A DNA stretch of 64,000 bases, taken from an uncultured Clostridia bacterium (lineage in GTDB: Bacteria; Bacillota; Clostridia; RUG12999). Position numbers and translations under genes: made by a program. Below are positions 5,669 to 49,281 of the stretch, piece by piece. Within the stretch, counting starts at the first letter, position 1. Each line of letters opens with the position of its first letter. The stretch is from positions 226 through 64,225 of the forward strand of contig CAMNSU010000008.1 in NCBI GenBank assembly GCA_946555455.1. Reading direction: 5' to 3'. Below the pieces are notes generated by a model. That model made no database searches. It saw nothing but the letters and a program-made list of their open reading frames with translations, and was not told the DNA's origin.

Positions 5669-8260
5669 TTAACGGTAGACAAACACACCGCGGTATTCTG
5701 TTCCCATACGTTTCGTGAACACATGGTCGCCCGGCATAATGCAGGCAGCGGTTTCCACTTCAATTTGGTCGCTCTCACTGTCATATACCAGCACTTTATC
5801 CGTAATATTCAGCGGAATGGTGCGGTTCCATTTATCCATCGGGAAGGCTGCCCCCTCTGCTGTTTCCTCCTCATTGGGAAGGTGATTGTTCACGATAATG
5901 CCTGTTCTGGTACGTGTAATTACTTCTCCGTAACTCATCAGATAGCCGCCGTTAAACGTTTTTTCATTTAACCCATATTCGTTTCCTGTTTCGGAGGTAA
6001 TGGCTTCGAATATGAGTGCACCGCCGTCTTTTTTCGGCACATGCTGAACCGCAATTCCGGTTAAACCGGTGAAATCCTCACTGATTTCCACAACAGTTCC
6101 GCGTTTCAAATCTTTTGCTTGAATCGTACTCAAACTCTTGTCGCCGGACATGATATTCCATTCGTTGGTGGTGATGGTTCCATCTTCCATCAACGCCGTC
6201 TTTTTCTTTCCGTTTGGCATATACATATCAAGCGCATAAACCGATTCGCCTTCTTTGTTTATTGTTTGATATACCCTGTCAACCATATAGGTGTCGCCCC
6301 AGAAGTCAACCCAACCTCCGACCGTGCGGGTTGTTTCCATAACCGCATACTGAATATCATAATCGTTGTTCACGTTATATAGTTTAATTTTCAGGCCGGT
6401 AAGCGTTGGTATGGAATTTCCCTGCTGCACATAACTTTCATCAAGGTCATTGGTGCATACCGTAAACACAACCGTGTTATCTCTTACCACATATTTAGAA
6501 CCGAGTATTCTTTTGCCGTTTAAATTAAGCGCCCGAAGTTCGCCGTCTTTTTCAAAGTTATAGTCCAGCGTAAATCCATTGTTGCCGCGGCTTCCGAGTG
6601 CACTTTTATTTTCTGCAATTTCTATGCTTGCGATCTCCCCAACGCTGTTTTCTTTAAACAGAATCAACTGCCGGTCAACTTCTCCGTTTTTCATGAATTT
6701 CGTTTCCACCAATTCTTTGCTTGTCATGCTACTGCCGTCCACCGACACTTTGCCACGCAGCGGAATCTCCCTTATTTTGCCGCTTTCATCGAGTATACCG
6801 ACAAAATATTTCCCAAGAGATTTCTGCCAGCATTTGATAAGGTAACCCGCCGTTGCATTGGTGCCTCCAACAGTGATATCTACGATTTTCCCAAGCACAT
6901 CAAATGATGCGGTCACACGGTCTCCGATTTTTACTTCTTCATTTCCTTTTATATTTTTTAAATAATCTTCGGTACATTCATATTCTTGTTCATCAATCGT
7001 AATATATTTATTATCGTCCCGCATAGACTTTAAGGTGCCTGTTACTTTTTGAGAGGTGGAAATCATATTGGTATATTCACCGCTGCGCGCCACCAAATAG
7101 GATAAAACCTGCGAACGAGAAAGAACACTGAAATCCATAACATTTCCCTGCGCATCGTACAGCTTATATCCCTCTTTAAAATATTCATTGATATCTAAAA
7201 TTTCTCCGTCTTTCAATAATATTTTCCCGGTCGTATACGCCACTTCTTCCACCAGCTTTGAGGTGTAGTGTTCAATCAATACGACCTCATATTTTCCGTC
7301 ATTGTTGTTATCTATCAATGTATATTCGCTGTCGGGTATTTCAAAATCCGCCGCCGTATAACTCGTTAATAGTTCGCGGTTATAAATAACGTCCACCGTT
7401 TCGGAAAGCACTGCCGTCTCTTTTCGGTTTTCCTCATAATATTCAATTCTTGTATCCGAACTTTTCGCAATATCCTCTGACGCGATTTTTACAATGTCGT
7501 TGTTTTTATACACCGTCAATGCACAGATATTATCTTCGTCTTGTTCTACATAAGCTCTCACAAATTTCCCCACATAATCGCTTCTGTCTTTCCTGTCATT
7601 GATGGTATATATAATACCGCCGATGTTGATATACCCTTCGCGCTGCGAACCGCTGCCGGTGATGGAATATGTATCCGTACCGTATACAATTCCCTGGACA
7701 ATTTTAATCTTCATGCGCGAGGACAGCAATGTTACATTTTTCAAAACCTTATATCCACTGTTTCCTCCGTCAAACACATGTGACATTGGCGCTGTCTTTG
7801 CCACTGCCTGATAAAGAATGTGCGCATATTGTCTCACATTCAAAATGCTATACTGGTTCAGCCCTGTATCTGAAATCATTTTTATTTCCCGCGCCATTAT
7901 CATATATGCATTTGCGTCGCTTGTATTTTTTCCTGTCAGCCGCATTTGTTCCGTATATCCGAGGACATCAATCAAAATCATTGCCGTCTGTCCGCAGCGT
8001 AATGGTTTTGATAAATCTTGACCCGCAAAATAAGTATTTGTATATAGGTCGCTGCCAAGCAATTTTGTCAAGCCGTTTGCCAGCGTGTTTTTGGTGACGT
8101 CGGAATCCGGTTCTGTGTTATCCAACAACCCCAGTTGAGAAAGCACGCTGATTTCCCAATCCTTGTCTTCCTCTATTTCCGCTGCGCTGACGGACAGATT
8201 CATTGCCAGCATTGATACTATCATCATCAGGGTTAGACCCAGTGCAATTATTTTTTTCAT
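5669..8260 (-). CDS. Secreted S-layer-like ~860-aa protein of unknown function (paralog of 49282-51816)
   Basis: Signal peptide MKKIIALG...SVSA, degenerate SLH-like N-terminus, beta-rich body with an LIDNNNDGKYEVV motif, ends VFVYR. RBS GAGGTG before 8260. Confidence 0.7.
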   Translation of the reverse strand: MKKIIALGLTLMMIVSMLAMNLSVSAAEIEEDKDWEISVLSQLGLLDNTEPDSDVTKNTLANGLTKLLGSDLYTNTYFAGQDLSKPLRCGQTAMILIDVLGYTEQMRLTGKNTSDANAYMIMAREIKMISDTGLNQYSILNVRQYAHILYQAVAKTAPMSHVFDGGNSGYKVLKNVTLLSSRMKIKIVQGIVYGTDTYSITGSGSQREGYINIGGIIYTINDRKDRSDYVGKFVRAYVEQDEDNICALTVYKNNDIVKIASEDIAKSSDTRIEYYEENRKETAVLSETVDVIYNRELLTSYTAADFEIPDSEYTLIDNNNDGKYEVVLIEHYTSKLVEEVAYTTGKILLKDGEILDINEYFKEGYKLYDAQGNVMDFSVLSRSQVLSYLVARSGEYTNMISTSQKVTGTLKSMRDDNKYITIDEQEYECTEDYLKNIKGNEEVKIGDRVTASFDVLGKIVDITVGGTNATAGYLIKCWQKSLGKYFVGILDESGKIREIPLRGKVSVDGSSMTSKELVETKFMKNGEVDRQLILFKENSVGEIASIEIAENKSALGSRGNNGFTLDYNFEKDGELRALNLNGKRILGSKYVVRDNTVVFTVCTNDLDESYVQQGNSIPTLTGLKIKLYNVNNDYDIQYAVMETTRTVGGWVDFWGDTYMVDRVYQTINKEGESVYALDMYMPNGKKKTALMEDGTITTNEWNIMSGDKSLSTIQAKDLKRGTVVEISEDFTGLTGIAVQHVPKKDGGALIFEAITSETGNEYGLNEKTFNGGYLMSYGEVITRTRTGIIVNNHLPNEEETAEGAAFPMDKWNRTIPLNITDKVLVYDSESDQIEVETAACIMPGDHVFTKRMGTEYRGVFVYR

Positions 8261-8272
8261 GCTTCTCACCTC

Positions 8273-9964
8273 TTAATCCTTCAATCCGCTCAGCATTGTA
8301 TAGACCAGCTTTGCAGTTTCACTGCGCAGCAGCGCGTTTTGCGGCAGGAAGGTTCCATCCTCATATCCGCTTATCACATCTGCGTTGACAAGTTCCAAAA
8401 CCGCTTCTTTCGCATAGCCGGAAATGTTCTCGCTGTCCGAAAATGCAATCTCTTTTTCCTCCGGATGCAGACGCAATCCGGCTGCCTTTACAGCGTTTAC
8501 TATCATCACTGCCGCGTCCTGACGGCTCACCTGCTGCATCGGTGCAAAGGTCGTTGGCGCTGTCCCATTTGTGATTCCGAGACCGGAACCGACTTTTACA
8601 TACTCGGCATACCATGCGTCATCAGGAACATCTTCAAACCAAACAGGATTTTGAACTTCTACATTTTCCAGATTTAACGCCGAAATCAGCACTTTAATAA
8701 ATTCCGCTCTTGTGATGGTGTCGTCCGGTCGGAACTGACCGTTGCCATCGCCGTTCATGATGTTATTTTCCGCCATATATTCAATATAAGATACTGCCCA
8801 CAGGGCATTTCCCAAATCATTGAATCTGCTGTTTCTGTCAAGCGAGGACACCAAATCAGAATTCACGCCGCCCGTTGTTGGCAAAAATGATCCGTTACTG
8901 TTTGCATCATTTCTTTTGACGGTTGTACCTCCGCCGCCTCCGACAACATTTTCTGTTTTCGGTTTGGACAACTCTGTGACAAGCGCGTTAAATTTATTCA
9001 CTATCGCTTGGGGCGTCATATAGGTTCTGCCCGCGATAATTCCTTTTGCCATTTGATAGGCGTCAACTGTTTTAAACTTACCTTCCAAATCAATCTTTAA
9101 TATGTCGTTATATTCTTTTATCACGTCAATAACGTTATCCCTGTTTGCCGCGTTCACTTTTGCAACGGCTTCCGAAGCGCGGAGAACATCTTCCAATTCC
9201 TTTGGTGTTGTCATGGTTTCCGTCTTTTTTAGATGGGCAAACACATCCGCTAATGCCGCATCCTTGTTTTTCACATCTGCAGAATAGGTAACGCCAAGAT
9301 ATTCTTCATATAAAAACAGTTTTGTGTAAATATCCGCGTCGGCGCAATTTTTAATCTCAGACAGCATACACGCCTTTTCAAATGCTTCCGCAACATCCTG
9401 TGCGTTTGTCGCACTGCCGCCCAAAATAGCGGCAGTATTTGTCTCAACCTCGCTTTTGTTTGCCTGGTAAATTGCCTTATCCATATCAAGGCTCCATACT
9501 TTATCCTGATATTTGCTGAGCACCGCTCCTATTGCCAACGCCGACGCACTGTTGATTTCTGTAACTGCAGTTTGCTCTTCCAAAGGATTGGCATATGTAA
9601 TGTCAATGATTTTTCCGTCCAGTTCTCCACCGCCGATGATTGCCTTATATACGCCGTACGGCGCCCCCTCGGCAAACAAGAAATTCACTGTATGACGCGT
9701 GAAAGCGCCGCTGATGTCGCTACTTGCGTCTATGCTCTCTATTTTATCAAACGCCGTTGAAATACCCTTCTCGTCTGTCGGCAGTTCCCCGCCGGGTTTC
9801 ATCAGATAGATGGTATACTGCGCTCTTCCGTAATCAGAGGACAAATTCACTTCCACCCTGTTCCCGCTGACACTTGCAGCCGTGTAGGTCTGCGCAAATG
9901 CGGCTGTGTTTAAACTGAGCGCCGCCGCACATGCGCAAACCAGCGCTATATATTTCTTTTTCAT
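8273..9964 (-). CDS. SLH-anchored surface protein (Ig-like, helical region, G-rich linker, 3 SLH)
   Basis: Signal peptide MKKKYIAL...AFA. C-terminal SLH repeats (FNDLGNALWA...ITRAEF, FEDVPDDAWY...VSRQDAA, FSDSENIS...LLRSETA). RBS before 9964. Confidence 0.88.
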   Translation of the reverse strand: MKKKYIALVCACAAALSLNTAAFAQTYTAASVSGNRVEVNLSSDYGRAQYTIYLMKPGGELPTDEKGISTAFDKIESIDASSDISGAFTRHTVNFLFAEGAPYGVYKAIIGGGELDGKIIDITYANPLEEQTAVTEINSASALAIGAVLSKYQDKVWSLDMDKAIYQANKSEVETNTAAILGGSATNAQDVAEAFEKACMLSEIKNCADADIYTKLFLYEEYLGVTYSADVKNKDAALADVFAHLKKTETMTTPKELEDVLRASEAVAKVNAANRDNVIDVIKEYNDILKIDLEGKFKTVDAYQMAKGIIAGRTYMTPQAIVNKFNALVTELSKPKTENVVGGGGGTTVKRNDANSNGSFLPTTGGVNSDLVSSLDRNSRFNDLGNALWAVSYIEYMAENNIMNGDGNGQFRPDDTITRAEFIKVLISALNLENVEVQNPVWFEDVPDDAWYAEYVKVGSGLGITNGTAPTTFAPMQQVSRQDAAVMIVNAVKAAGLRLHPEEKEIAFSDSENISGYAKEAVLELVNADVISGYEDGTFLPQNALLRSETAKLVYTMLSGLKD

Positions 9965-10008: not shown

Positions 10009-12747
10009 TTATAACTTTGGCTCTTTCTTTGAAACATGAACCTGATTGATGCTGACCGTATCGTTGTCAGCGGTTGTCACCTTGAATTGGTTAAACACGC
10101 CGCTATAGCCGATATACTTTTCATCTCCGCTGCCGAAGTTTCCGATATAGTTCCACTCTCCGTCATCCAGTCTGCCATAGACACTGCAAACGCTGAGCGT
10201 TTCTCCGGGCGAGACGCTGACGGACACAAAACCGTTTTCAATCGGTTCTGCAATCTCCGCCGTAACCGCTGCGGTTTGTGTAATCGTATAATTCGACGGT
10301 TCGCTGTTTGTCAGAAAACTAATGTCTCTGCCGTCTGTTGCCGTGATTTTTGTAATTTTGTTCTCGTAGAGTTGTCTCCACATGTTTTCAAGTTCCGTTT
10401 CGCGTTCGCGCCCCTCCATAATATAGTTGACTTTCGTTTTTTTCGGGGGCGCTTGCTGAGAAGAGGTAAGCGCGATACCGTCCGCGCCCACAACCGCATT
10501 CACTGTGTTTTCTCCGTCTTTGCTTACGACAAGCGTTGTTTCTGCCTCCATACCGTTTGCCTCAACCGTGATTTTATAGTTTCCTCTGTGACCGCGCATG
10601 GCAATCTTGCCCTCGCTGTCTGTGTTTCCTCCCGTATTCGTCCACCATTCTTTTTGCGTTAAGTCTATCCATGTTTTCTGTCTTTTTTTGGGCAGAAACA
10701 TATCGTCATAAAGTGCGGCATTGCCCGCCCAGTGCCAATGGTCGGAAAATCCCCACAACACAAACGACGTCATTTTAGGCTGTGAATATGCCATAATCAC
10801 CAAATCCTTGTAAAAGTCATCTTCCGCCTTTTCCGCCTCAGCATTCCAAACACGCGGGTTGTAGTCATATTCTGTGATGGACATAGTTTCCAGATTCTCC
10901 GCCACATATTCCGCCTGATTATATAATAGCTGCGGATACGGCAGCATGATAAAATGGTCTTCCAGTCCCACGCCGTCGATTTTTGCGCCGTTTGCAATAT
11001 ATTCTTCAATTCGTTCTTTCAGCGCAATCGGTTTTCCCCAGTTGTCCACCTCGCCGTTAACGCCGTCGTTGACGAGAAATTTCATGTCCGAACCGATATC
11101 ATCGCAAATATCCTCCACAATGTTCATCACCTTGACCATCCAGTCAACGCCGTATTTCAAATACCATATTTCCCATCCAAGCGGTTCATTTTCAATATCC
11201 ATTTCATAGAAGATATCGCCGTATTCATAAAGCGTCCGGCTCGCGTGCTTGACATAATATTCTATCAATTCCTCCTCCGTTATTGTATCGGCTGTTTTTC
11301 CGCTATAGACAAAATAATTGTCCATAAAACCTTCCGCATCCCAAATCAGATTGTGATACCTTGCATCTATGTCGTTCTCCCGGAACAAATTTGCCGTCAG
11401 CGGAAGCTGGTTGTGCGGATTGTTATCGTCCCGCGCATAATAAGCCGAACTGCCGATTGCATTTATCGTTCCGGTATTAAAATTTTCCAAAAACAGGTCG
11501 TTATAAATGTTTCCAATCTGTCCAAGCTGCATCGCAAACGCCGGTTGATAAAGCGTTCCCCAATGGAACTCGCTTTTCGTCATATCTGCCTTAACCTTTG
11601 CATTCGGCACCGGATTTCCGTTTTCGTCCGTAACATTTACGCGAATGTCCCGTACTCTGTATTTTTCAATTCGTTTCAAGGCTTCCTCCCGCCAGAGCGC
11701 ACCCTCCTCGCGTCCGTAGTAGTTATGCATCTGCGGCGCATAGCGTCCTGTATTTCCTTCGCCCGAAACACCGTCTCCCGCCAGGGATATTTGTGAGGTA
11801 TCAAACCCTTTGCCGTAATTGATCAGCGTCAGGTCAGCAACTTCAAATGTCTGATGATGGTATAAAAAACGCAAACCGAACTGCGTTGTCCCCACGTCCT
11901 GCGCCGTTATCATTTTAAATACAAACCGATATTTTGTCCAATCGCTGCCGGGCTGAATGTCTGTACTCAAGGATTTCTCCCATGGGTCGCTGTTAGCCTC
12001 AAAACATAGGTTGCATTTGGCTCTCGCAGATTCATCTGCCGTGATGATGGTTCTTGCCCAAAACGTGAGCACAAGCACATCGTCCAAATCGCACATAATC
12101 TTTCCTTTTGTGCCTACCTGCTGTTCATAGGCGTAGTTTGGCTGTTTGACAAGGCTCTGCAACCGCAGTGCCTTGTCAAAGTTTGGATTGTCCGGAACGT
12201 CAACCCATTCCGCTTTCAGCTTTGTATATCCGTCAATCTGCAAATCCTCTATGGTCAGCACCTCTTCGTGCTGCGGATAGGAGGCGATATATGCGTCCAA
12301 ATCAAATTCCTCTTTGGGCGGCGGCGGTGTATATGTCAAACGGATATTCGCGCCGTTTGCCTCCGCATAAGTCATTTCATAAATTTTCTCCAAAAAGTCA
12401 AACTGTATCATCACATCGTTTTCCACGCTTTTGCAATAATGCTCCAGTTCAAATGGGACATAATCATAATTTGCCGTATAGGACTCCGGTTTCACAGAAA
12501 TTTCAATGCCGTTTACCTCGCCCTCATACAGTCCCGTTTCTGCGTTATAAGCAATCTCAAGACCAAGATGTCCCATGGTTTCCCGAAATGGCAGCAGCCA
12601 CATCCCTTCGTCTTGATAAGGAGCATTTTGAAGCGCCACCGTTTTTCCGTTCAGCGTCACCTTCGGCGCCGCTTCCGCTGCAAAAGCGGGCAGGGATACG
12701 GAAAGAACAAAAACAACGCTTAAAATCGCTGACAGAATTCTTTTCAC
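10009..12747 (-). CDS. Divergent GH10-family glycosidase with N-terminal copper-amine-oxidase-like domain and CBM4/22-like module
   Basis: Signal peptide and an N-terminal VTLNGK...LPFRETMGHLG domain. RYHNLIW, acid/base IENEP, nucleophile ITEYD and VLWGFSD motifs. Confidence 0.78.
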   Translation of the reverse strand: MKRILSAILSVVFVLSVSLPAFAAEAAPKVTLNGKTVALQNAPYQDEGMWLLPFRETMGHLGLEIAYNAETGLYEGEVNGIEISVKPESYTANYDYVPFELEHYCKSVENDVMIQFDFLEKIYEMTYAEANGANIRLTYTPPPPKEEFDLDAYIASYPQHEEVLTIEDLQIDGYTKLKAEWVDVPDNPNFDKALRLQSLVKQPNYAYEQQVGTKGKIMCDLDDVLVLTFWARTIITADESARAKCNLCFEANSDPWEKSLSTDIQPGSDWTKYRFVFKMITAQDVGTTQFGLRFLYHHQTFEVADLTLINYGKGFDTSQISLAGDGVSGEGNTGRYAPQMHNYYGREEGALWREEALKRIEKYRVRDIRVNVTDENGNPVPNAKVKADMTKSEFHWGTLYQPAFAMQLGQIGNIYNDLFLENFNTGTINAIGSSAYYARDDNNPHNQLPLTANLFRENDIDARYHNLIWDAEGFMDNYFVYSGKTADTITEEELIEYYVKHASRTLYEYGDIFYEMDIENEPLGWEIWYLKYGVDWMVKVMNIVEDICDDIGSDMKFLVNDGVNGEVDNWGKPIALKERIEEYIANGAKIDGVGLEDHFIMLPYPQLLYNQAEYVAENLETMSITEYDYNPRVWNAEAEKAEDDFYKDLVIMAYSQPKMTSFVLWGFSDHWHWAGNAALYDDMFLPKKRQKTWIDLTQKEWWTNTGGNTDSEGKIAMRGHRGNYKITVEANGMEAETTLVVSKDGENTVNAVVGADGIALTSSQQAPPKKTKVNYIMEGRERETELENMWRQLYENKITKITATDGRDISFLTNSEPSNYTITQTAAVTAEIAEPIENGFVSVSVSPGETLSVCSVYGRLDDGEWNYIGNFGSGDEKYIGYSGVFNQFKVTTADNDTVSINQVHVSKKEPKL

Positions 12748-17497: not shown

Positions 17498-18385
17498 TTA
17501 CCCCTTAACTGCGCCTATCGTCAGACCCTGTATGAAATATTTCTGGAAGAACGGATACACAATCAGTATCGGACCCATAGCGACAACACAAAGCGCCATT
17601 CTGACCGCATCCTCCGGAATGTTGCCCGCAAAGCGTGACGCCACCTCCGCACTCATGGCAGAATCGGACAGCATCTGAATATTTTTCATCATGACCTGCA
17701 ACAGAAATTGCAGATTATACAGATTTTTGTCTGTGATCAAAAGCATGGGATTAAACCAGTCGTTCCAATATGCAAGCGTCTGAAACAGCGCGATTGTCGC
17801 AATTGCAGGTTTCGCCAGCGGAAGCACCAGCGAAATTAGTATTTTCATTTCGCCCGCTCCGTCTATTTTTGCCGATTCTATCACGGACATCGGAATTGTC
17901 GTCTGGAAAAAGGTTCTCATGATGATGGTATACCACGGACTCATTGCCAGCGGTAAAATTAACGCCAATATCGTATTCCCCATGTGGTAATATTTCGTTA
18001 CCATGATATACCATGCCAAAAGTCCGCCGCTGAACAGCATTGTGAAAAAGATATAAAATGTAAAAAATCCTTTGCCTTTCAGACCCGGACGGGACAGAGG
18101 ATATGCATAAAGCGCCATGACCATTACGCTGATAAGCGTTCCGCATACGGTTGAACCAATCGTCACCAGATACGCATGTCCCACACCCATGTCGCTTGTG
18201 AATATATACCGGTATGCGTCCAAACTTGTTTGGGCAGGAATAATCTGATATCCGAAATTATTAATTGTACTTTGGTCTGTAAACGAAATGATGATAACCA
18301 GGAGTATCGGAAATACGAATACCACAACCAGCGCAAGAAACAATAGATGTATCAGCGCATTGACAAATTTATTACTGATTTCCAT
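17498..18385 (-). CDS. Carbohydrate ABC transporter permease (MalG/LplC type)
   Basis: TM helices, EAA motif ESAKIDGAG, C-terminal YPFFQKYFIQGLTIGAVKG. Confidence 0.95.
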   Translation of the reverse strand: MEISNKFVNALIHLLFLALVVVFVFPILLVIIISFTDQSTINNFGYQIIPAQTSLDAYRYIFTSDMGVGHAYLVTIGSTVCGTLISVMVMALYAYPLSRPGLKGKGFFTFYIFFTMLFSGGLLAWYIMVTKYYHMGNTILALILPLAMSPWYTIIMRTFFQTTIPMSVIESAKIDGAGEMKILISLVLPLAKPAIATIALFQTLAYWNDWFNPMLLITDKNLYNLQFLLQVMMKNIQMLSDSAMSAEVASRFAGNIPEDAVRMALCVVAMGPILIVYPFFQKYFIQGLTIGAVKG

Positions 18386-18399
18386 AATTCCGCCCCTCC

Positions 18400-19326
18400 T
18401 TAAAACATTGCGCTTTCACGGTCAATTTTGCGAACGACCGCATTTGCGCTCACTACCATGATAAATCCGAGTACCGATTGCAACATAGACGCCGCGGCAG
18501 ACAGTCCGCTTCCCGCCGCGCCTGCGCCTCGCATCATATTATAGACATACGTGTTCATCACCATTGTTGTAGGATACAGTGCGCCGGAATCCATAGGTAC
18601 ATTATAAAACAAGCCGAAATCTGAGCTGAAAATACGTCCGATATCCATAATTGTCATAATAATCACGATATTTTTGAGTGACGGAAGTGTAATATGTATA
18701 ATTTTTTTCCAAGTCGATGCGCCGTCTATTGTCGCCGCTTCATAAAGTCCCGGATCAATTCCCGCCATGGCAGCAAGATATACAATGCTGCTGTAACCTA
18801 TGGTTTTCCATGCATTTACAATAAACAATATCACCGGCCACGCATTCGTTTTGGTGTACCAATTTACTTTTTCTCCGCCGAATAAGTTCACAAACGCCGT
18901 ATTATTTAAAAATCCCGATTCCATGTTTAAAAATGCATACACAATATAGGCGATGATAACCATTGACAAAAAATACGGCATAATATAAATTGTCTGATAT
19001 ACCTTTGACGCAAGTTTATTTTTAATCAGCGACAGCAGCACCGCAAGCGTTACTGCAAACACCACGCCGGTAGAAATAAACACCAGATTATACAAAACCG
19101 TGTTGCGCAGCGCCAGCCACGCATTGGAATTGTTCATGAGCATTCTGAAATTCTCAAGTCCGACCCATGGACTTCCGAATATTCCATCACGCATATTAAT
19201 TTGTTTGAATGCAATGATTGTGCCGAACATAGGCATGTAGCTAAACAGAAATACAAGTGCAAATCCCGGAATAAACATCATGTACAGAGGTATATCGTTC
19301 CGCAGCCGTGTTAATCTCTTATTCAT
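18400..19326 (-). CDS. Carbohydrate ABC transporter permease (MalF/LplB type)
   Basis: YMPMFG, WVGLENF and EAA motif LYEAATIDGA. The RBS favours ATG 19326 (ORF track 19341). Confidence 0.95.
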   Translation of the reverse strand: MNKRLTRLRNDIPLYMMFIPGFALVFLFSYMPMFGTIIAFKQINMRDGIFGSPWVGLENFRMLMNNSNAWLALRNTVLYNLVFISTGVVFAVTLAVLLSLIKNKLASKVYQTIYIMPYFLSMVIIAYIVYAFLNMESGFLNNTAFVNLFGGEKVNWYTKTNAWPVILFIVNAWKTIGYSSIVYLAAMAGIDPGLYEAATIDGASTWKKIIHITLPSLKNIVIIMTIMDIGRIFSSDFGLFYNVPMDSGALYPTTMVMNTYVYNMMRGAGAAGSGLSAAASMLQSVLGFIMVVSANAVVRKIDRESAMF

Positions 19327-19352
19327 ATTATTTCTCTCCATACTTAAAGTTG

Positions 19353-19375
19353 GGGGGCGCTGTCCGCAGCCCCCC
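19353..19375 (-). promoter_or_regulatory. GC-rich stem-loop after the SBP gene (mRNA stabiliser or partial terminator)
   Basis: GGGGG-C-GCTG-TCCG-CAGC-CCCCC hairpin between the SBP stop and the permease RBS. Confidence 0.55.
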
Positions 19376-19382
19376 TGTTTTT

Positions 19383-20885
19383 TTATTTATTTGCCAAATA
19401 TTCGTCCACCTGTTTTTGCAGTTCCTCTTGAATTTTGTCCACGCCCGCTGCTTTCAGTTCTGTCAGATATTGTTTGACAATCGGTTCCGGGTCAAGTGCG
19501 CCGAGAGATACCTGTTTGTTATATTGCGCTTCCACCACAGAACATGCCGCAATTTCTGCCTGAACATTTGTCGTATCAAATACGAATGACATTAACTTGC
19601 TTCTTTCAGCCTCTTTATCAAATTCCTGTAGTTCTTTCTTCACGTTCGGGTCTTCATCTTCTGTGCAGTAACCGATAAATACATTTGCAAGCATCCATTT
19701 CGCATCTGACAGACAATATCCCGAATTTGGTATGAGTCGGATAACGTTATCCGAGACTTTTTCATAGTGTTTTCCTTCCACACCGAATACCAGCAAATTA
19801 TTCAGCACCGGATCCGTATTAACAAGTTCCAGAAACCGCGCTACCCTTGCCGGATTTTTCGATGTTGCCGAAATTGCATTCATGGAAGCCAGACCAAGCG
19901 CTGCCTGCGGTTTCTCAATATATGCCTGCGCAAAATCATATTTCGGATTTTTAATCAGTTCCTGCACCTTGCCAGGTTTTAACGGATACATCATACAGAA
20001 GGTTTTGCCGTTTTGCAGCCCTTTAATTCTGTCAGCATCTGAATTGTTTGTCATAATATCGCGTTTAATCAGTTCTTCCTTATAGTACGTGTTTGCCATT
20101 TTAAACTGTTCCATTGCCTCCGGCTGTTCCAGGCGGTTAACAATTTTAAACGTATCGTCTCCCTGTACATATCCGAGGTTGCAGCCTGTCATAACCGATA
20201 CATACGGCAAAGTTCCGCCAAGAGACATATTTTCGCCCCAGTCAATCGGATATGTCATATCCGGTTCATTCTCCTTTATCATTTTTGCTATCGGCAGAAG
20301 ATCGGCATATGTTTTTACCTGTGACATGTCAATATGATATTTGTCCGCAATATCTTTTCTGTAAATCCAGCCATATGCCGTTGCATTTTCTTTGATGGTC
20401 GGCAGCGCATAGATTTTTCCTTTTACTCTTGCGCCCTCCAGCGAATCATGGTCTGCCAATTCATAGGTCTTAGGCATATATTTCTCAAAAAGTTCATCCA
20501 TCGGATAAAATGCGCCTGTTTCCGCACTTACCGCATAGTTTAGCATCCAGTTGGCGGTATAGCACAAATCAAAATATTCTCCCGCTTGAAGCATATTTGT
20601 CATTTTGTCGCTATACTGCGCGCTCTCCATAATATTTAGTTTGATTGTCGCGTTGATTTTGTCTTTTAAATAGGCATTGATTTCATTTTCAACCGTTGCC
20701 ACATCGGATTGTTGGTTTGCACATATGTACCAGTTAATTTCATAGGGTGTTTCCGGAACCGTGTTCGGGTCTTCCATGGATGTCGTTGTTACGCCCTTCG
20801 TACCGCATCCTCCTGCCATTCCTGCAAACATCACAGCCGCTGCCGCAAGCGCAATCCCTTTAAACCATCTGCTTTTTTTCATCAT
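19383..20885 (-). CDS. ABC transporter solute-binding lipoprotein (LplA-like, DUF3502-type C-terminus)
   Basis: Lipobox MAGGC, and a C-terminal LKAAGVDKIQEELQKQVDEYL. RBS AGAAAGG before 20885. Confidence 0.92.
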   Translation of the reverse strand: MMKKSRWFKGIALAAAAVMFAGMAGGCGTKGVTTTSMEDPNTVPETPYEINWYICANQQSDVATVENEINAYLKDKINATIKLNIMESAQYSDKMTNMLQAGEYFDLCYTANWMLNYAVSAETGAFYPMDELFEKYMPKTYELADHDSLEGARVKGKIYALPTIKENATAYGWIYRKDIADKYHIDMSQVKTYADLLPIAKMIKENEPDMTYPIDWGENMSLGGTLPYVSVMTGCNLGYVQGDDTFKIVNRLEQPEAMEQFKMANTYYKEELIKRDIMTNNSDADRIKGLQNGKTFCMMYPLKPGKVQELIKNPKYDFAQAYIEKPQAALGLASMNAISATSKNPARVARFLELVNTDPVLNNLLVFGVEGKHYEKVSDNVIRLIPNSGYCLSDAKWMLANVFIGYCTEDEDPNVKKELQEFDKEAERSKLMSFVFDTTNVQAEIAACSVVEAQYNKQVSLGALDPEPIVKQYLTELKAAGVDKIQEELQKQVDEYLANK

Positions 20886-20923
20886 TTTTTCCGCCTTTCT
20901 TTTTATTAACTTTATTTTCTGCA

Positions 20924-22189
20924 TCATAATCCCAAAGAGGGAAGTTCTTTGATATATTTTCTGATGATTCCTTGATGAAATCCATTGTTTTCAATGATTT
21001 CTTTATACATCCATGCCGAGGGTTTCGGGGTTCTCTCAAACATTCCGCTTTCTCTGTCCACACTGCACAGCCCGAATTTCGGCCGGAATGTCCACCATTC
21101 GTAATTGTCCAAAAGCGACCAATATAAAAATCCTTTGACGTCTACTCCCATATCAATACACTGTCTCAGCGCCGAAAAATGAAGTATCATATAAACAATT
21201 CTAAATCTGTCATCATTGCAGCAGCAGCCGTTTTCAGTGATATAAACAGGCTTGTCAGTCAACCTCGTCAACGTATTTATCATACATTCCGGATAAAATT
21301 CGTCAAGGTAAAACTCCATATCTATCATTTTCAGTTTTTTATGATAATAATCAGCTTTTCCTGCTTTTTCCAATGCGTTTGTCAGCGTGCGCGTATAGAT
21401 GTTGACCGACCAAAAATCCGACGTCCCCTTCACCTCCGGCAGATAGCAGCCATCTCTGCCAAGCTGTATGATTTCGCCTGTGCGCATCGCATGGAAAAAG
21501 AATTCGTTATCGTTTGCGTCACGGTACTGTGCCGAAGCAATATCCATTTTATTGTTCGGACGGTAAGGCATATAATTGACAAACGCATGTGCGGAACTGA
21601 CAGGCGCCGTGGTATATCGCTTAATCGTATGATATCCCAATGCATGGAATTTCACGGAATTGATTTTAAACTCCTCCGGACCAAGATTAAATTCGTTTAA
21701 AACATTATAAAAATCGACATACGGCGCAATTTTTGGAACGATATAATCTAAATAACGCTCAAAATAAATCAAATTTTCTTCCTTGTTAAAACCGCCCTTA
21801 TCTTCAAACCAGATGGGAATGCTGAAGTGTACCATCGTGCAAAACACTTTAATGCCCCGTTCCTTCAGCGCGGCAAAAAATTTCACATAATGCTCTGTCG
21901 CTTCCGCCGAAAAACTATTTTCGTCCGGCTGTATTCTCGACCATTCAACCGATGTCCGGAACGCCTGATGTCCGAGTTTTGAAACCAGTTCCACATCGTC
22001 CATATACATCTCATAACTGTTACAAGCAATTCCGGAAGGCTCTCCTATCGGATTGGGATTTCCTTTCTGTTCACTCCTCCAATTACTGGAATTCGTATTA
22101 TTTCCTTCCACCTGATGTCCTGCATAGGCGCTGCCCCAAAGAAATCCCTCCGGCATTTTCACATCCTGAATCGAAAAAATATCATACAC
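20924..22189 (-). CDS. GH1 beta-glycosidase
   Basis: FLWGSA..GHQVEG, FRTSVEWSRI, acid/base LNEF, nucleophile YITENG and WSLLDNYEW motifs. Confidence 0.93.
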   Translation of the reverse strand: MYDIFSIQDVKMPEGFLWGSAYAGHQVEGNNTNSSNWRSEQKGNPNPIGEPSGIACNSYEMYMDDVELVSKLGHQAFRTSVEWSRIQPDENSFSAEATEHYVKFFAALKERGIKVFCTMVHFSIPIWFEDKGGFNKEENLIYFERYLDYIVPKIAPYVDFYNVLNEFNLGPEEFKINSVKFHALGYHTIKRYTTAPVSSAHAFVNYMPYRPNNKMDIASAQYRDANDNEFFFHAMRTGEIIQLGRDGCYLPEVKGTSDFWSVNIYTRTLTNALEKAGKADYYHKKLKMIDMEFYLDEFYPECMINTLTRLTDKPVYITENGCCCNDDRFRIVYMILHFSALRQCIDMGVDVKGFLYWSLLDNYEWWTFRPKFGLCSVDRESGMFERTPKPSAWMYKEIIENNGFHQGIIRKYIKELPSLGL

Positions 22190-23334
22190 TACCCATCACC
22201 TCTCAAAAATTGATCAATCGCTTCCGTAGGCGCTTCTGCTGCTCTTTGTTCCACAAATGTCAGCACCTCTTTTTTAATGCGCATTGCCGTTTCCGCATAA
22301 CTCTTGATATGCGGACGAAGCTGGATGTTTTGCATACGCGACTCCATTTTTGGTATATGATTCCATGCAGAAACCACTGTATCGTTGCGGTATAGCTTCG
22401 GTTTCAATGGATACATACCGCTCTGTTTGATAAGTTCCACCTGCACGCTGTCGCGTCCAAAAAATGCAAGCACCTTTTCACATTCTTCTTTGTGTTCACT
22501 AAGTGTTGAAACAGAAAGTCCGAAAAGTTTTGCAACCGATGTTTCCCGACCGCTTTGACTTAGCGGCGTGTTATGTGCTTTAAAAATCGTTGATACCGCT
22601 GAGGACTCTTCATAAAACTCCGGAATCACACTTGACCATGCATGCATGATTGGCACATTTCCTTTTTTAAATGCGTCTATATTCATTCTTTCATCGCCGC
22701 TCGCATGATAGATACTTTCATAGAGCTGCAGCGCGCTTTCAATATCCCCGTCTGTATATTCGATAAGCTCCATAAGCGCACAGATGATATCCTCCCGGTC
22801 ATCGTTAATTTTTAACGTTTCACCCAAATTCTTGTCATACTCCGATATACTTGAAAATTCTCCGTCCCAGCTATATCTGTCAAGCGAAAACAGCATCCCC
22901 AAATCCATGTGAAACGGCATTGCATATGCCATTCCATTTCTGATGAAACTTTCCTGCACATAGTCAAAATATTCTCCGTCCGGCTTTAAAGCGCCGGAAA
23001 GCGGCACAATCCACTGCTTGTCAACGAAATCATCGACCCACGCATCCTCTGTTTCAACGATATCAAACAGATATTCACCGGTGGAAAATGCCGAAGATAA
23101 AAGACTGTATTGGTCAAATCCGGAAGAAAGTTCTATGAACTTCAGTTTGATACCCGTATTCTCTTTTTCAAATGCATCCTGCACTTTTTGCAGCAAGCTG
23201 CTTTCACCGGCACGCACCGCCACGGTCAAAGTCAGCCGTTCCTCTTTTTCATATGAATCATCTTGAACGCCGCACGAAGTGAAAAGACATAACATCAATA
23301 TGGCGATACCTGTAAGTTTTATATATCTTCTCAA
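22189..23334 (-). CDS. Extracellular solute-binding lipoprotein (family 1)
   Basis: Lipobox LFTSC, YAMPFHMDLGMLF and HIQLRP-like motifs. TTG start with RBS. Confidence 0.8.
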   Translation of the reverse strand: MRRYIKLTGIAILMLCLFTSCGVQDDSYEKEERLTLTVAVRAGESSLLQKVQDAFEKENTGIKLKFIELSSGFDQYSLLSSAFSTGEYLFDIVETEDAWVDDFVDKQWIVPLSGALKPDGEYFDYVQESFIRNGMAYAMPFHMDLGMLFSLDRYSWDGEFSSISEYDKNLGETLKINDDREDIICALMELIEYTDGDIESALQLYESIYHASGDERMNIDAFKKGNVPIMHAWSSVIPEFYEESSAVSTIFKAHNTPLSQSGRETSVAKLFGLSVSTLSEHKEECEKVLAFFGRDSVQVELIKQSGMYPLKPKLYRNDTVVSAWNHIPKMESRMQNIQLRPHIKSYAETAMRIKKEVLTFVEQRAAEAPTEAIDQFLRGDG

Positions 23335-42581: not shown

Positions 42582-45500
42582 TTAGTTGATAATCGTTTTT
42601 GCCTGCCAAAGCGGTTTTAGATTCACAAAGGAATCCCAAATATACGCAACCACTTTATCGCCGTTATTTGTTGGAATCATATAGGTAATCGATTGCCATG
42701 TATTGTTCTGCGCAATCGGCGTCAGCGTTTCCACCGGCGTACAGGACACTAAGCGTTCACCGCTGTCATATGCTGCAAATACAAATTGCGGCGCAGCATT
42801 ATTCCCTGCCGAATGATTGAGTGCTTCAATCCTAATGGTAGTCGTTCCGTCTGTGTTGGATTCGGTATAATATTCCCCAAACTCTATTGCCGGCGGTTCA
42901 AAACCGCCGTTTTCTATCAGTTCTTTTCCCGTTGCCGTATCAACAACGCTCAATTTATCCAGATAAAAACGATTCACGCCATTATAATCCTGCAAGAACA
43001 ATAGCGCTTGATTTTCGCTTTGCAATATATAATCTTTCACTTCAAACTTATACCATCCGTTTGCATCCGGTCCTGTTACAGTCTGCCCCACATCCGGATA
43101 CTTTGTACCGGATAGGTACGGTGCATTATTCGCAATACACAGTCCTTCCGCTGTAATATATAAGGTTTTGATATCCCCTTTGAAACAGAAGCTAATATCG
43201 TACTTCCCACCGGTTGCCATGCCAAATGCGGCGCATCTTGCTGCAATCGGATACCAGTCCTTCACACTGTGATTAATATATACGGACCAATCCCCTTCAT
43301 ATGCCTCTTTAGCAGAATAGGAAACACCGTCTACAACAACGTCATTTAGTAATTCTTTGATATTCGGCGCATGTTTTCTGATGGGTTCTTCTTCCGGCGC
43401 CGCCGGTACTGCAGGCTCAAAACCGCCGTTTTCTATCAGTTCTTTTCCTGTTGCTGTATCAACAACGCTCAATTTATCCAGATAAAAACGATTCACGCCA
43501 TTATAATCCTGCAAGAACAATAGCGCTTGATTTTCGCTTTGCAATATATAATCTTTCACTTCAAACTTATACCATCCGTTTGCATCCGGTCCTGTTACAG
43601 TCTGCCCCACATCCGGATACTTTGTACCGGATAGGTACGGTGCATTATTCGCAATACACAGTCCTTCCGCTGTAATATATAAGGTTTTGATATCCCCTTT
43701 GAAACAGAAGCTAATATCGTACTTCCCACCGGTTGCCATACCAAATGCGGCGCATCTTGCTGCAATCGGATACCAATTCAATTCACTACGATTCACATAC
43801 AGCGACCATTTGCCCTCATACGCCTCCTCAGACGAATAAGAAACGCCGTCAATCTCCGCATTATTATGCAATTCTCTGATGATATTATCTGTATGCACAC
43901 CTGCTTCAACGCTTATCAACATAGGCGTATATGCTTTTACCGCCGCACTTCCTTTGTAGGTTTCTGTGCTAATTAAATCAGTAAATGCTTTTACTTTTTG
44001 TCCGTTCCTGTAAATTTCTATTTCCTTATCGGTCTCACTATAGCTGCAAAGATTAATAATCGTATTGCCATCATACTCAGAGCACAAGTATTCACAGTCC
44101 GTAAGCGGCTTACCGGTTGCCGTATCAATAATGCGGATACTTCCGTCGTTTCCGACAGCATTACTAACCGCTTCCCCCACTTTTGCTGCACATTCTGCAG
44201 TAAGATTTCCTCTGTTTGCAGAAATTTCAACAACCTCCGCATTCTGTAACACTGATGATGCATCACGCGTACGACCATACATATCTTTTGACAGTGAATC
44301 ACTGCCCAGCACAACTAATCTGCCGCCGCTTTCCACAAAACGCTTAACAGCATTAAATCCTGCATCATTCACTGCGACTACATGTGGGATGATAAGGCAT
44401 TTCAAATCACTCATCTTTTCCAATGACGCTTCCGTTTCTGTTGCAATAAACTGTGTTTTTTGTCCATTTTCTCCCAGCTTTGCATATGCCGTATAAATAG
44501 CATTCATATAGTCGTCTGCATACGGAATATTCTCTGCCGCATACAACATTCCCACATTTGCTTTTGCTTCGCTGATGGACACAATTTCTTTTGCCAAACG
44601 GTTTAAATCTAGAGTTGTTTTCCCAATTGCCGCAACGGTAGCCGGACGCTCCTTCAGCGCCAAAGAATAACTATTTTGCTCGTTTTGTCTGTTCCAAGGC
44701 CAGATGATTGTACCTCCTTTACCGTGAACAGCACCCTGCCACAAAGCGGCTGTGTTGTACGCCCGTTCCACCTCGGAGAAACTTATCTCTTCTGCGTCCA
44801 GATACAGATGTTCTTCTGAATTATATATTGGTGCGTTTTTCACAGACGTCTGATAATCATAGAAAATATCCTGTGTCCTGATGTCAAGTCGATTTCGCTG
44901 CGCTGAATTGGTGAACGCGTCACAACTGTTGATATCAAGCGTCGGCGCAAGCGCCTCCCAGTTGTTTGCACTGCCAAACCTCTGAAATGTGTTTGTATAC
45001 ATCATATTCTGCTGCATTTTTGTCTGAACAAGCACATTGGTATCATATTTTTTTACCAGACCTGCGGCATATTGATGATACCTTGCTAAAACTTGGTCGT
45101 TAAATTGGCGCCAATCATGGAATTGCGGCGTTGCCTCCTGCGCTATAGGCATAGTCACCTGTTCAAAATCGGTATAATTCGTTCCCCATTTGCTGTTCAA
45201 AGACGCAATATCGTTATATTTTTCCTCCATCGCCTCCTGAAATAATGGCAAATAATATGCCGAATCTTTATAGGTTATATATACAGGCTCATTCATCAAT
45301 ATAATGCCGTCAAAGGCAGGTTTGCCCGCAAGCGCCGGCATAATGGCGTTATAATAATCCGCATAATATTTTTTGACTTTAGGATGATCCAGCAGTGTGT
45401 TGGTAGAAAATATCCAGTTCTGTGCCGAATGAATTTCCGGATAGTCCTCGCGGTATACCTCCGGTATCCCATGAGCGCCAACATTAAAGATTCCGGACAG

Positions 45501-46625: not shown

Positions 46626-46653
46626 ATTTGTTATCTCCACCTTTAGCCAGCTA

Positions 46654-49227: not shown

Positions 49228-49281
49228 TTTTTTCACTCCTTTGATGATACCGCTTTGAATCTCTATCTCTTTACACACTTT

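What the first reader, a model, noticed from the sequence alone, without database searches (positions are those of the whole stretch)
5669..9964. Conserved two-gene S-layer module built into both glycan loci: a candidate new surface glycan-capture system
Seen: both loci contain the same adjacent pair in the same order. An SLH protein (Ig-like, helical, G-rich linker, 3 SLH; 8273-9964 and 51842-53281) is followed 12-25 bp later by an ~850-860-aa secreted beta-rich protein (5669-8260 and 49282-51816). The two large proteins align along their length (GIV.G/TAN..I, RAY/EAY, IEYYE, L.DN..D..Y..V, terminal VYR). Neither protein has a recognisable catalytic, cohesin or dockerin motif. Inference: this is a locus-specific, stoichiometric surface scaffold that holds secreted glycosidases and binding proteins next to the ABC importer. 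It would be a Gram-positive analogue of the SusC/D or cellulosome logic that I cannot match to a described system.
Basis: partly seen in the sequence, partly recalled or inferred. Interest (0 to 1): 0.85.

Follow-up and report, generated by a model that had tools for sequence, protein, structure and literature searches.

The report
Wall-anchored protein pair in sugar-harvesting loci
Two sugar-harvesting gene clusters of an uncultured mouse-gut Clostridia bacterium each carry the same back-to-back pair of non-enzymatic cell-wall proteins, and this pair recurs in carbohydrate loci of many gut Clostridia, belongs to a very large unnamed protein family, and probably organises sugar capture at the cell surface.

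Summary
Both loci encode, on the minus strand, a secreted protein ending in three canonical SLH (S-layer homology, cell-wall-binding) repeats. A Shine-Dalgarno site and the start of a secreted, all-beta protein of about 860 aa follow 12 or 25 nt later. The two large proteins are homologous (24% identity, E 1e-19).

the large protein begins with a decayed SLH trimer. It also belongs to a very large unnamed family: the best 150 cluster representatives are nearly all full length at 430 bits or more.
- **The pair is conserved:** an SLH protein sits directly upstream in 19 of 24 informative independent loci, all of them carbohydrate loci. The two proteins co-diversify, and at least four cluster representatives fuse them into one ORF.
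- **No catalytic or cellulosome parts:** neither protein shows catalytic-type conserved residues, a cohesin or a dockerin. No solved structure matches outside the SLH parts.
- **Anchors sit only on the pair:** co-encoded secreted enzymes almost never carry SLH. They carry a Cu_amine_oxidN1-like domain or an unnamed C-terminal domain instead. In 8 loci a Cu_amine_oxidN1-tagged enzyme lies immediately upstream of the pair.

Verdict: this is a real, undescribed, non-catalytic wall-anchored module of Gram-positive glycan loci. The proposed scaffold role is plausible but untested. I rate it a new variant of SLH-based surface display.

The parts
8273..9964 (-). Partner 1. Secreted protein made of a signal peptide, an Ig-like beta sandwich (about 9593-9892), a helical domain (about 8969-9586), a Gly-rich linker and a canonical SLH trimer (about 8276-8830).
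   Evidence: ORF and translation. Pfam SLH x3, E 1e-34. AF2 model with pLDDT 77. Foldseek matches the SLH trimers of Sap (3pyw) and SpaA (6cwc) at TM 0.8, and gives only generic Ig-like hits for the sandwich. The TRAE, SRQD and LRSE motifs are intact (read).
5669..8260 (-). Large protein 1 (863 aa from the ATG). It has a signal peptide, an SLH-derived remnant (about 7790-8167), a conserved all-beta body (about 5672-7762) and a DNNNDG loop (about 7286-7312).
   Evidence: Translation. No Pfam or NCBIfam hit. The family profile matches the SpaA and Sap SLH trimers over profile positions 32-176. AF2 model with pLDDT 76. The clade taken alone keeps only a weak SLH signal. No PDB fold match.
51842..53281 (-). 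Partner 2. Signal peptide, beta sandwich, helical region, Gly/Ser-rich linker and a canonical SLH trimer (about 51845-52381).
   Evidence: Translation. Pfam SLH x3, E 5e-39. 40% identical to partner 1 in the SLH part only. Same architecture in alignment A4.
49282..51816 (-). Large protein 2 (about 844 aa from the GTG). Signal peptide, a complete but degenerate SLH trimer (about 51307-51720) and a beta body (about 49285-51273).
   Evidence: Translation. Homologous to large protein 1. hhalign of its clade's N-terminus against partner SLH trimers gives probability 95%, E 2e-8, over 138 columns. Orthologous pairs in L025, L026 and L027.
10009..12747 (-). Secreted GH10-like enzyme with an N-terminal Cu_amine_oxidN1 domain (about 12352-12672), lying immediately upstream of partner 1. 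It has no SLH and is a candidate client of the pair.
   Evidence: Pfam Glyco_hydro_10 E 3.5e-16 and Cu_amine_oxidN1 E 3.5e-10. A protein with the same tag sits in the same position in 8 loci.
46654..49278 (-). Secreted CBM4_9-type binding protein immediately downstream of large protein 2. It has no SLH and ends in the unnamed 'WDS' domain (about 46660-46959).
   Evidence: Pfam. 'WDS' HMM hit at E 6e-38.
42582..46640 (-). Secreted GH42-like enzyme with a CBM4_9 domain. It has no SLH and ends in the 'WDS' domain (about 42591-42890).
   Evidence: Pfam. 'WDS' HMM hit at E 4e-38.
17498..23334 (-). Importer side of locus 1: solute-binding protein, GH1, solute-binding protein with DUF3502, and two ABC permeases.
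   Evidence: Pfam.
53314..56592 (-). Importer side of locus 2: solute-binding protein and two ABC permeases, lying directly upstream of partner 2.
   Evidence: Pfam. Same gene order in L025.

Best explanation
The pair is a dedicated, non-catalytic, wall-anchored surface module of Gram-positive glycan-utilisation loci.

**Shown**
- Both proteins are secreted.
- They are made from one transcript region, with a Shine-Dalgarno site directly after the partner's stop codon.
- The partner ends in a canonical SLH trimer.
- The large protein starts with a decayed SLH trimer, followed by a conserved beta core of about 500 aa and a variable C-terminal third.
- The pair is inherited as a unit and is sometimes fused into one ORF.
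- It is the only SLH-bearing element in nearly all of these loci.

**Inferred**
- The partner binds pyruvylated secondary cell-wall polymer (SCWP).
- The partner holds the large protein, whose own anchor has decayed in this lineage. The two would then form a hetero-complex projecting from the wall above the ABC importer's binding lipoprotein.
- This platform keeps the extracellular stage of the locus at the cell surface. It would retain the polysaccharide, most likely through the variable distal part (some relatives add an F5/8 type C or Golvesin_C domain). It would also retain the co-encoded secreted enzymes and binding proteins, which lack SLH and carry a Cu_amine_oxidN1-like or 'WDS' domain instead.
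- Oligosaccharides would then be released next to the importer.
For: **Homology and family**
- Homology of the two large proteins.
- The family is very large. The best 150 of 1.84 billion cluster representatives all score at least 430 bits and are nearly all full length; 8089 score E<=1e-30.
- Named members are all 'hypothetical'.

**SLH parts**
- SLH trimer at the N-terminus of the family.
- Canonical SLH in the partner.

**Linkage of the two genes**
- Partner directly upstream in 19 of 24 informative loci.
- Shine-Dalgarno site directly after the partner's stop.
- Co-diversification: Spearman 0.40, permutation p 5e-4, with the same nearest-neighbour order.
- End-to-end fusions in P0029, P0092, P0105 and P0120.

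**Non-catalytic character**
- Across 141 members the conserved columns are G, Y, L, N and P, with no catalytic-type set. Conservation falls from about 0.4 at the N-terminus to about 0.2 in the C-terminal third.

**Links to glycans and to the neighbouring enzymes**
- An F5/8 type C or Golvesin_C domain precedes the SLH in 6 of 9 extended members scanned, and also in P0014.
- Only 1 of about 27 large secreted neighbours carries SLH.
- Cu_amine_oxidN1-tagged enzymes sit immediately upstream of the partner in 8 loci, with 4 unrelated catalytic architectures. The large proteins of these loci are only 21-28% identical between the distinct loci.
- The 'WDS' tag is on anchor-less neighbours in 9 or more loci.
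- PF07833 replaces SLH in the surface scaffoldins OlpC and ScaG (PMC3413522).
- All loci are carbohydrate loci.
Against: - There is no direct evidence of any protein-protein or protein-glycan contact. No multimer prediction was possible.
- Five of 24 loci lack the partner, so the large protein can work without it.
- The link between a decayed own SLH and the presence of a partner is only a trend: 2 of 16 versus 3 of 5 with a strong own SLH, among the 21 loci scored, Fisher p 0.06.
- The partners' N-terminal domains are not clearly one family.
- The background frequency of the Cu_amine_oxidN1 and 'WDS' tags in these genomes could not be measured, because the genome search was shut. Their presence near the pair may simply reflect their abundance.
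- Cu_amine_oxidN1 may bind the wall directly and need no protein receptor.
- Co-diversification is expected for any two genes of one operon.
- The fusions could be gene-calling or frameshift artefacts, because I could not read their DNA.
Confidence: 0.5

Rival explanations
1. Pure surface glycan-binding proteins, a functional analogue of SusE/F-type proteins. The pair binds polysaccharide only. The anchor-less enzymes attach to the wall on their own, through Cu_amine_oxidN1 or 'WDS', or else diffuse freely.
For: - Locus-specific, deeply diverged paralogues (24% identity).
- A variable distal C-terminal third.
- F5/8 type C or Golvesin_C additions in relatives, and F5/8 on the partner in L005.
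- The OlpC/ScaG precedent suggests that PF07833 is itself a surface-attachment module.
Against: - No recognised carbohydrate-binding module in either window protein.
- It does not explain why a Cu_amine_oxidN1-tagged enzyme sits immediately upstream of the partner in 8 deeply diverged loci.
- It does not explain why the pair is the only SLH element in these loci.
Confidence: 0.2
2. General envelope or S-layer-type structural proteins. The large protein would be an S-layer or S-layer-associated lattice protein, of the N-terminal-SLH plus beta-domain type seen in Sap, EA1 and SbsB. It would be co-expressed with sugar operons to remodel the envelope and would not handle glycans or enzymes.
For: - Same overall layout and size as the N-terminal-SLH S-layer proteins.
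- No catalytic or carbohydrate-binding domain.
Against: - Two copies within 64 kb, and at least two copies in other metagenome-assembled genomes, each embedded in a different sugar operon.
- The SLH is decayed in the window's copies.
- Constant association with CAZymes and sugar regulators.
- No sequence or fold match to the crystallisation domains of Sap, EA1 or SbsB.
Confidence: 0.12
3. Two independent wall proteins that merely share an operon. They would have no physical or functional coupling.
For: - Five of 24 loci lack the partner.
- The partner's N-terminal domains vary widely in size and content, from 479 to 1098 aa.
Against: - Fixed order and orientation, with gaps of -20 to +44 nt, across members only 21-28% identical.
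- End-to-end fusions.
- Co-diversification.
Confidence: 0.1
4. The large protein is a cryptic enzyme that founds a new glycoside hydrolase or lyase family.
For: - It lies inside CAZyme operons.
- A body of about 700 aa has no Pfam family.
Against: - Across 141 diverse members no acidic, His, Ser or Cys catalytic-type columns are conserved. The columns at 80% identity or more are G, Y, L, N and P, plus D73, D456 and Q533.
- The model is a string of small beta domains with no barrel, helix or propeller fold recognised.
Confidence: 0.05

Closest known systems
SLH-anchored multimodular glycoside hydrolases coupled to ABC importers. Examples: Paenibacillus sp. JDR-2 Xyn10A1, Bgl16A1 and Amy13A2 (PMC4765114). 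From my own knowledge: Caldicellulosiruptor SLH glycosidases, and the Monoglobus pectinilyticus SLH CAZymes described by Kim et al. 2019, which the library did not hold.
   Same: SLH trimers hold the extracellular stage of a polysaccharide-utilisation locus at the wall, next to a substrate-specific ABC importer. The loci are regulated by AraC-type or two-component systems. The lineage is related to Monoglobus: the closest named genome is Ca. Ornithomonoglobus.
   Different: In those systems the SLH is fused in cis to the enzyme and its CBMs. Here the SLH sits on two dedicated non-catalytic proteins, and the enzymes of the locus lack SLH.
Cellulosome anchoring scaffoldins: C. thermocellum SdbA, OlpB and Orf2p (cohesin plus C-terminal SLH), and OlpC / A. 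cellulolyticus ScaG (Cu_amine_oxidN1-like domain plus cohesin) (PMC3413522).
   Same: The partner has the scaffoldin layout of an N-terminal beta module, a linker and a C-terminal SLH trimer. The co-encoded enzymes lack anchors and share small tag domains. PF07833 is used as a surface-attachment module in the same bacterial class.
   Different: No cohesin by Pfam or by fold. No dockerin on any locus protein. Each locus has its own pair, whereas a cellulosome uses a few genome-wide scaffoldins. No interaction has been shown.
Bacteroidota Sus-like surface glycan-binding proteins (SusD, SusE/F) and utilisomes (PMC7618045).
   Same: Locus-specific, rapidly diverging, non-catalytic surface proteins encoded next to the transporter and the enzymes of a glycan locus.
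   Different: No homology. SLH wall anchoring in a monoderm replaces a lipoprotein in an outer membrane. The importer is an ABC system and not a TonB-dependent transporter. Glycan binding is not shown.
S-layer proteins with an N-terminal SLH trimer: B. anthracis Sap and EA1, G. stearothermophilus SbsB, P. alvei SpaA (PMC6081394, PMC8942822).
   Same: The large protein has an N-terminal SLH trimer followed by about 700 aa of beta domains, and is of similar size.
   Different: Several copies per genome lie inside sugar operons. The SLH motifs are decayed in the window's copies. There is no similarity to the known assembly domains.

Membership tests
SLH-domain cell-wall proteins (Pfam PF00395), partner proteins | Three tandem SLH repeats that form a pseudo-trimer, with TRAE-type motifs | tested here: met
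   Pfam SLH x3 at E 1e-34 and 5e-39. The model superposes on 3pyw and 6cwc at TM 0.8. The motifs TRAE/SRQD/LRSE and TREE/SRQD/TRAE are present.
SLH-domain cell-wall proteins, large proteins | A recognisable SLH trimer | tested here: inconclusive
   The family profile hits the SpaA and Sap SLH structures (E 3e-12). Of 146 relatives, 78% are HMM-positive. Large protein 2's clade aligns to an SLH trimer at probability 95%. Neither window protein reaches Pfam or my HMM threshold. Large protein 1's clade keeps only a remnant (E 0.025), and the motif Arg is replaced (K59 against a family R at 81%).
SLH-domain cell-wall proteins | Binding to pyruvylated secondary cell-wall polymer, and presence of the CsaB pyruvyltransferase in the genome | not testable with these tools
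Cellulosome anchoring scaffoldin | At least one cohesin module | tested here: not met
   No Pfam cohesin at E<=0.1. No cohesin among the top 50 Foldseek matches of the partner model; the sandwich gives only generic Ig-like hits at E>0.01.
Cellulosome anchoring scaffoldin | Dockerin modules on the client enzymes | tested here: not met
   No Dockerin_1 hit on any of the 20 locus proteins scanned.
S-layer (lattice) protein of the Sap/EA1/SbsB type | Self-assembling crystallisation domains, and a single highly expressed envelope gene | tested here: not met
   No sequence or fold match to the assembly domains. Two paralogues lie inside sugar operons within 64 kb. Self-assembly itself is not testable here.
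Carbohydrate-binding module proteins / surface glycan-binding proteins | A recognised CBM or demonstrated glycan binding | tested here: not met
   No CBM in the four window proteins. F5/8 type C or Golvesin_C occurs only in some relatives. Binding is not testable here.
Glycoside hydrolase / polysaccharide lyase | A conserved catalytic acid/base or nucleophile, and a known catalytic fold | tested here: not met
   No conserved catalytic-type columns in 141 members. No Pfam family on the body in 54 members. No fold match.
The unnamed family defined here (SLH-derived N-terminus plus a beta body of about 700 aa) | A full-length match to the family profile | tested here: met
   Large protein 1 scores 976 bits and large protein 2 scores 566 bits against the body HMM. 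More than 146 cluster representatives match at full length.

The most novel reading that the evidence does not exclude
The pair is the receptor of a cohesin- and dockerin-free enzyme-display system that is widespread in uncultured gut Clostridia. Anchor-less secreted CAZymes and binding proteins would carry a Cu_amine_oxidN1-like or 'WDS' tag. The tag would dock onto the conserved core of the large protein, or onto the partner's N-terminal domains. The partner's SLH trimer would fix the whole assembly to the wall above the ABC importer. Each glycan locus would then bring its own small, cellulosome-like 'utilisome'.
Probability: 0.22. Interest if true: 0.85.

Novelty: new variant of a known kind. 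Interest (0 to 1): 0.6.

Why it matters
How Gram-positive gut bacteria couple extracellular polysaccharide breakdown to uptake is much less understood than the Sus-type systems of Bacteroidota. [quoted passage not shown]

This family is very large, wholly unannotated and non-catalytic. It travels with sugar importers and CAZymes, and carries the only wall anchor of its locus. That makes it a concrete, testable candidate for the missing organising element.

A family model for it, and for the partner architecture, would also improve annotation of Gram-positive polysaccharide-utilisation loci in metagenomes. It would flag the Cu_amine_oxidN1 and 'WDS' domains as possible docking or retention tags.

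Tried and rejected
- **Outer-membrane OmpM-like porin reading** (N-terminal SLH plus a beta-rich C-terminus). Rejected: the lineage is monoderm, the model has short strands in small domains, and there was no barrel match.
- **Internal repeats in the body.** hhalign of nine segments against each other found nothing above probability 28%.
- **Homology between the 'WDS' domain and the partner sandwich, the partner helical region or any body segment.** None found.
- **'WDS' domain against Pfam and the PDB.** Nothing significant. The best hits were phage lysin wall-binding regions at E 0.25 and E 1.
Not found here.
- **RNA evidence.** The candidate runs gave only sparse, low-depth contigs of unknown library type, unusable for expression or co-transcription.
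- **Scans for more loci.** The metagenome-contig scan found no relative. Alignments A1 and A2 were too diverse for a locus scan.
- **Whole-genome searches** (copy number, csaB, background frequency of the tags). Not possible, because the genome tools were shut (notice).
- **Literature.** Six searches found no description of the pair. The Monoglobus pectinilyticus genome paper (Kim et al. 2019) is not held, so its content is cited from memory only.
- **Partner present when the own SLH has decayed.** This is a trend only, p 0.06, and I do not claim it.

Full report
**1. What is in the window**

All genes of both loci lie on the minus strand.

- Locus 1 runs from about 23.3 kb down to a strong terminator at 1175-1136. 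In order it encodes a solute-binding protein, GH1, a solute-binding protein with DUF3502, two ABC permeases, a 1577-aa Big_5 protein, a 912-aa GH10-like enzyme with an N-terminal Cu_amine_oxidN1 domain, partner 1, large protein 1, a melibiase-like protein, AXE1 and GH20.
- Locus 2 encodes a solute-binding protein, two permeases, partner 2, large protein 2, an 874-aa CBM4_9 protein, two GH42-like enzymes of about 1350 aa, an AraC regulator, a melibiase-like protein and GH35.

The partner's stop codon is followed at once by a Shine-Dalgarno site and the start of the large gene: TAA-GAGGTGA-6 nt-ATG with a 12-nt gap, and TAG-AAGGAG-8 nt-GTG with a 25-nt gap.

**2. The partners**

Each partner has a Sec signal peptide and three Pfam SLH repeats at the C-terminus (E 1e-34 and 5e-39), with intact TRAE-type motifs.

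The AF2 model of partner 1 (pLDDT 77) shows four parts:
- a beta sandwich at residues 39-137;
- a helical domain at 140-345;
- a disordered Gly-rich linker at 349-391;
- an SLH trimer that superposes on B. anthracis Sap (3pyw, 6bt4) and P. alvei SpaA (6cwc and others) at TM about 0.8 and probability 1.0.

The sandwich finds only generic Ig-like folds at E>0.01, no cohesin appears, and the helical domain finds nothing.

The two partners are 40% identical in the SLH part and not detectably similar elsewhere. Partner 1's N-terminal part is BLAST-related to the partners of L009, L010, L003 and L001. Other partners form separate groups and range from 479 to 1098 aa. The order sandwich, helices, Gly-rich linker, SLH recurs in all nine partners aligned in A4.

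**3. The large proteins**

The two are homologous: 24% identity over about 500 residues at E 1e-19, plus the C-terminal 200 residues at E 2e-7. Pfam and NCBIfam find nothing.

A word-indexed search found only 10-14 relatives. The exhaustive profile search changed the picture. Among 1.84 billion cluster representatives, 8089 score E<=1e-30. The best 150 all score at least 430 bits, almost all full length at 830-930 aa. The 8089 figure may include some hits driven by SLH alone. However, scores fall only from 490 bits at rank 30 to 429 bits at rank 150, which implies very many full-length members.

Every named member is 'hypothetical' or 'uncharacterized'. Of 54 diverse members, 34 hit Pfam SLH at the N-terminus, and no family recurs on the body.

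- The family profile matches the SLH trimers of SpaA and Sap over profile positions 32-176 (E 3e-12).
- Of 146 top representatives, 78% are positive with an HMM built from the partners' SLH.
- The window's two proteins are negative with that HMM.
- Large protein 2's clade still aligns to a full trimer (hhalign probability 95%, E 2e-8, 138 columns).
- Large protein 1's clade keeps only a remnant (E 0.025), with part of the middle repeat deleted and hallmark residues replaced, for example K where 81% of the family have the motif Arg.

*The body.*
- The AF2 model (pLDDT 76) is a chain of small beta domains.
- Across 141 members the columns at 80% identity or more are G, Y, L, N and P, with no catalytic-type set.
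- Conservation falls from about 0.4 (SLH region and core, residues 40-520) to about 0.2 in the last third.
- A conserved I-D-N-x-x-D-x-x-Y-[DE]-V-V loop (DNNNDGKYE in large protein 1) looks like a DxNxDG calcium loop. This is my inference.

**4. Is the pair conserved?**

I collected 24 informative independent loci through exact-protein look-ups and a genome scan. I called ORFs in them and searched with my own HMMs.

- A protein carrying an SLH trimer (at its C-terminus in all but L020) lies immediately upstream of the large gene in 19 of the 24. It is on the same strand, with a gap of -20 to +44 nt.
- The large proteins in these loci are only 21-70% identical.
- The five exceptions (L012, L013, L018, L021, L022) are distant members. 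They still sit beside AraC or histidine-kinase regulators, solute-binding proteins or F5/8 proteins.
- Both window pairs have orthologous pairs elsewhere: L009 (70%), L010 (48%, Ca. Ornithomonoglobus intestinigallinarum), L003 and L001 for pair 1; L025 (52%), L026 (33%, same candidate species) and L027 for pair 2.
- Pairwise identities of the body and of the partner's SLH correlate (Spearman 0.40, permutation p 5e-4), and the nearest-neighbour order agrees. The pair therefore moves as a unit, and the window's two pairs are old paralogues.
- Four cluster representatives (P0029, P0092, P0105, P0120) encode partner-like N-terminus, canonical SLH trimer, second SLH and body in one ORF. I could not inspect their DNA, so artefacts cannot be excluded.
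- L003 carries a tandem second copy of the large gene.

**5. Context**

Every locus that could be annotated is a carbohydrate locus. The domains found include GH10-like, GH2, GH5, GH13, GH36, GH42, GH88, GH106, GH141-like beta-helix, heparinase II/III-like, GDSL esterases, F5/8 type C and CBM4_9/6/9. They sit with sugar ABC transporter parts and with AraC or YesM/YesN-type regulators.

Two further regularities emerged.

*(a) SLH is confined to the pair.* Of about 27 large predicted-secreted neighbours in pair-bearing loci, only one has any SLH signal.

*(b) The anchor-less proteins share one of two small domains.*
- One is a Cu_amine_oxidN1-like domain (PF07833). A PF07833-tagged enzyme lies immediately upstream of the partner in 8 loci: window locus 1, L001, L003, L009, L010, L020, L028 and L030. 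The tag is N-terminal, internal or C-terminal, on four unrelated catalytic architectures. The large proteins of the distinct loci among these are only 21-28% identical.
It is found on neighbours in window locus 2, L003, L007, L008, L013, L023, L025, L026 and L027, and internally in two partners. It has no Pfam or PDB match.
- PF07833 has a precedent as a surface module. C. thermocellum OlpC and A. cellulolyticus ScaG consist of this domain plus one cohesin, where SdbA-type scaffoldins use SLH (PMC3413522).
- I could not measure how common these tags are elsewhere in the genomes, because the genome tools were shut. Enrichment near the pair is therefore a lead and not a result.

**6. Most likely mechanism**

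*Shown:*
- two secreted, co-encoded, non-catalytic proteins;
- a canonical wall anchor on the partner;
- a decayed anchor, a conserved core and a variable tip on the large protein;
- unit inheritance and occasional fusion;
- sole possession of SLH within the locus.

*Inferred:*
- the partner binds pyruvylated SCWP and holds the large protein;
- the complex stands above the importer's binding lipoprotein;
- it retains substrate, tagged enzymes or both, so that oligosaccharides are released next to the transporter.

Glycan binding is suggested by the F5/8 type C or Golvesin_C domains placed before the SLH in 6 of 9 extended members scanned, plus P0014, and by the variable distal third. Enzyme docking is suggested by the tag pattern. 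Neither is demonstrated.

I put 0.5 on the general model. The rivals are pure glycan binders (0.2), general envelope proteins (0.12), uncoupled neighbours (0.1) and a cryptic enzyme (0.05).

**7. Comparison with known systems**

The pair works most like the SLH-based surface display of Gram-positive polysaccharide systems (Paenibacillus JDR-2, PMC4765114; from memory, Caldicellulosiruptor and Monoglobus pectinilyticus). The difference is that the anchor is supplied in trans by dedicated proteins.

The partner has the layout of an anchoring scaffoldin but fails the cohesin and dockerin tests. The large protein has the layout of an N-terminal-SLH S-layer protein, but its gene context, copy number and lack of assembly-domain similarity argue against that. 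The analogy to Sus surface glycan-binding proteins is functional only.

Six literature searches found no description of the pair. The library is incomplete, and the key Monoglobus paper is not held.

Earlier notes of this scan report similar 'SLH pairs' and tag domains in other gut Clostridia. Sequence look-ups found no link to them, so I treat them as unverified leads.

**8. Verdict**

This is a new variant of a known kind. Interest is 0.6, for a very large, unannotated, non-catalytic family that is a concrete candidate for the organising element of Gram-positive glycan loci, with clear experiments available.

Noticed in passing
window 12352-12672 (within 10009-12747); L001 5191-8154; L003 5518-8274; L009 5478-8018; L010 165-2927; L020 3776-6406; L028 4056-8381; L030 3001-5625: An enzyme carrying a Cu_amine_oxidN1-like domain lies immediately upstream of the SLH partner in 8 loci. 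The tag is N-terminal, internal or C-terminal, on GH10-like, F5/8, beta-helix/GH141-like and heparinase-like proteins. This looks like a conserved three-gene cassette: tagged enzyme, partner, large protein.
   Followed up: partly
window 42591-42890, 46660-46959 and 23828-24120 (C-termini of three secreted proteins); also L003, L007, L008, L013, L023, L025, L026, L027: An unnamed C-terminal domain of about 100 aa (motifs AAYD and WDS..M.PL) ends anchor-less secreted proteins in many loci that hold the large-protein family. It occurs internally in the SLH partners of L023 and L027. It has no Pfam or PDB match. The best, non-significant hits are phage lysin wall-binding regions.
   Followed up: partly
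L003 9989-12625 and 12639-15269: Tandem duplication of the large-protein gene behind a single SLH partner.
   Followed up: no
Proteins P0031 (2313 aa), P0034 (2594 aa) and P0083 (1963 aa) from the representative search: Giant proteins that repeat 'SLH plus the first part of the family body' three or more times in one chain.
   Followed up: no
L025 1-4395: The orthologue of locus 2 in another metagenome lies directly beside SSB, RepA_N and tyrosine-integrase genes. The whole glycan locus may therefore sit on, or next to, an integrative mobile element.
   Followed up: no
window 5669-8260 versus relatives (family position of K59, and others): Large proteins that have a partner tend to have lost their own SLH signal (2 of 16 keep a strong one), whereas partner-less members tend to keep it (3 of 5). 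The count covers the 21 loci scored. It is a trend only (Fisher p 0.06).
   Followed up: partly
window 1136-1175 (minus strand): A strong intrinsic terminator (18-bp stem followed by a T run) ends the roughly 22-kb locus 1 operon after the GH20 gene. No comparable terminator lies inside the operon.
   Followed up: no
window 7286-7312 (large protein 1 residues 320-328) and the equivalent VDNDGDSNYD in large protein 2: A conserved DxNxDG-type loop resembling the calcium-binding loops of FG-GAP/VCBS repeats or dockerins. It is the only such motif in the protein.
   Followed up: no
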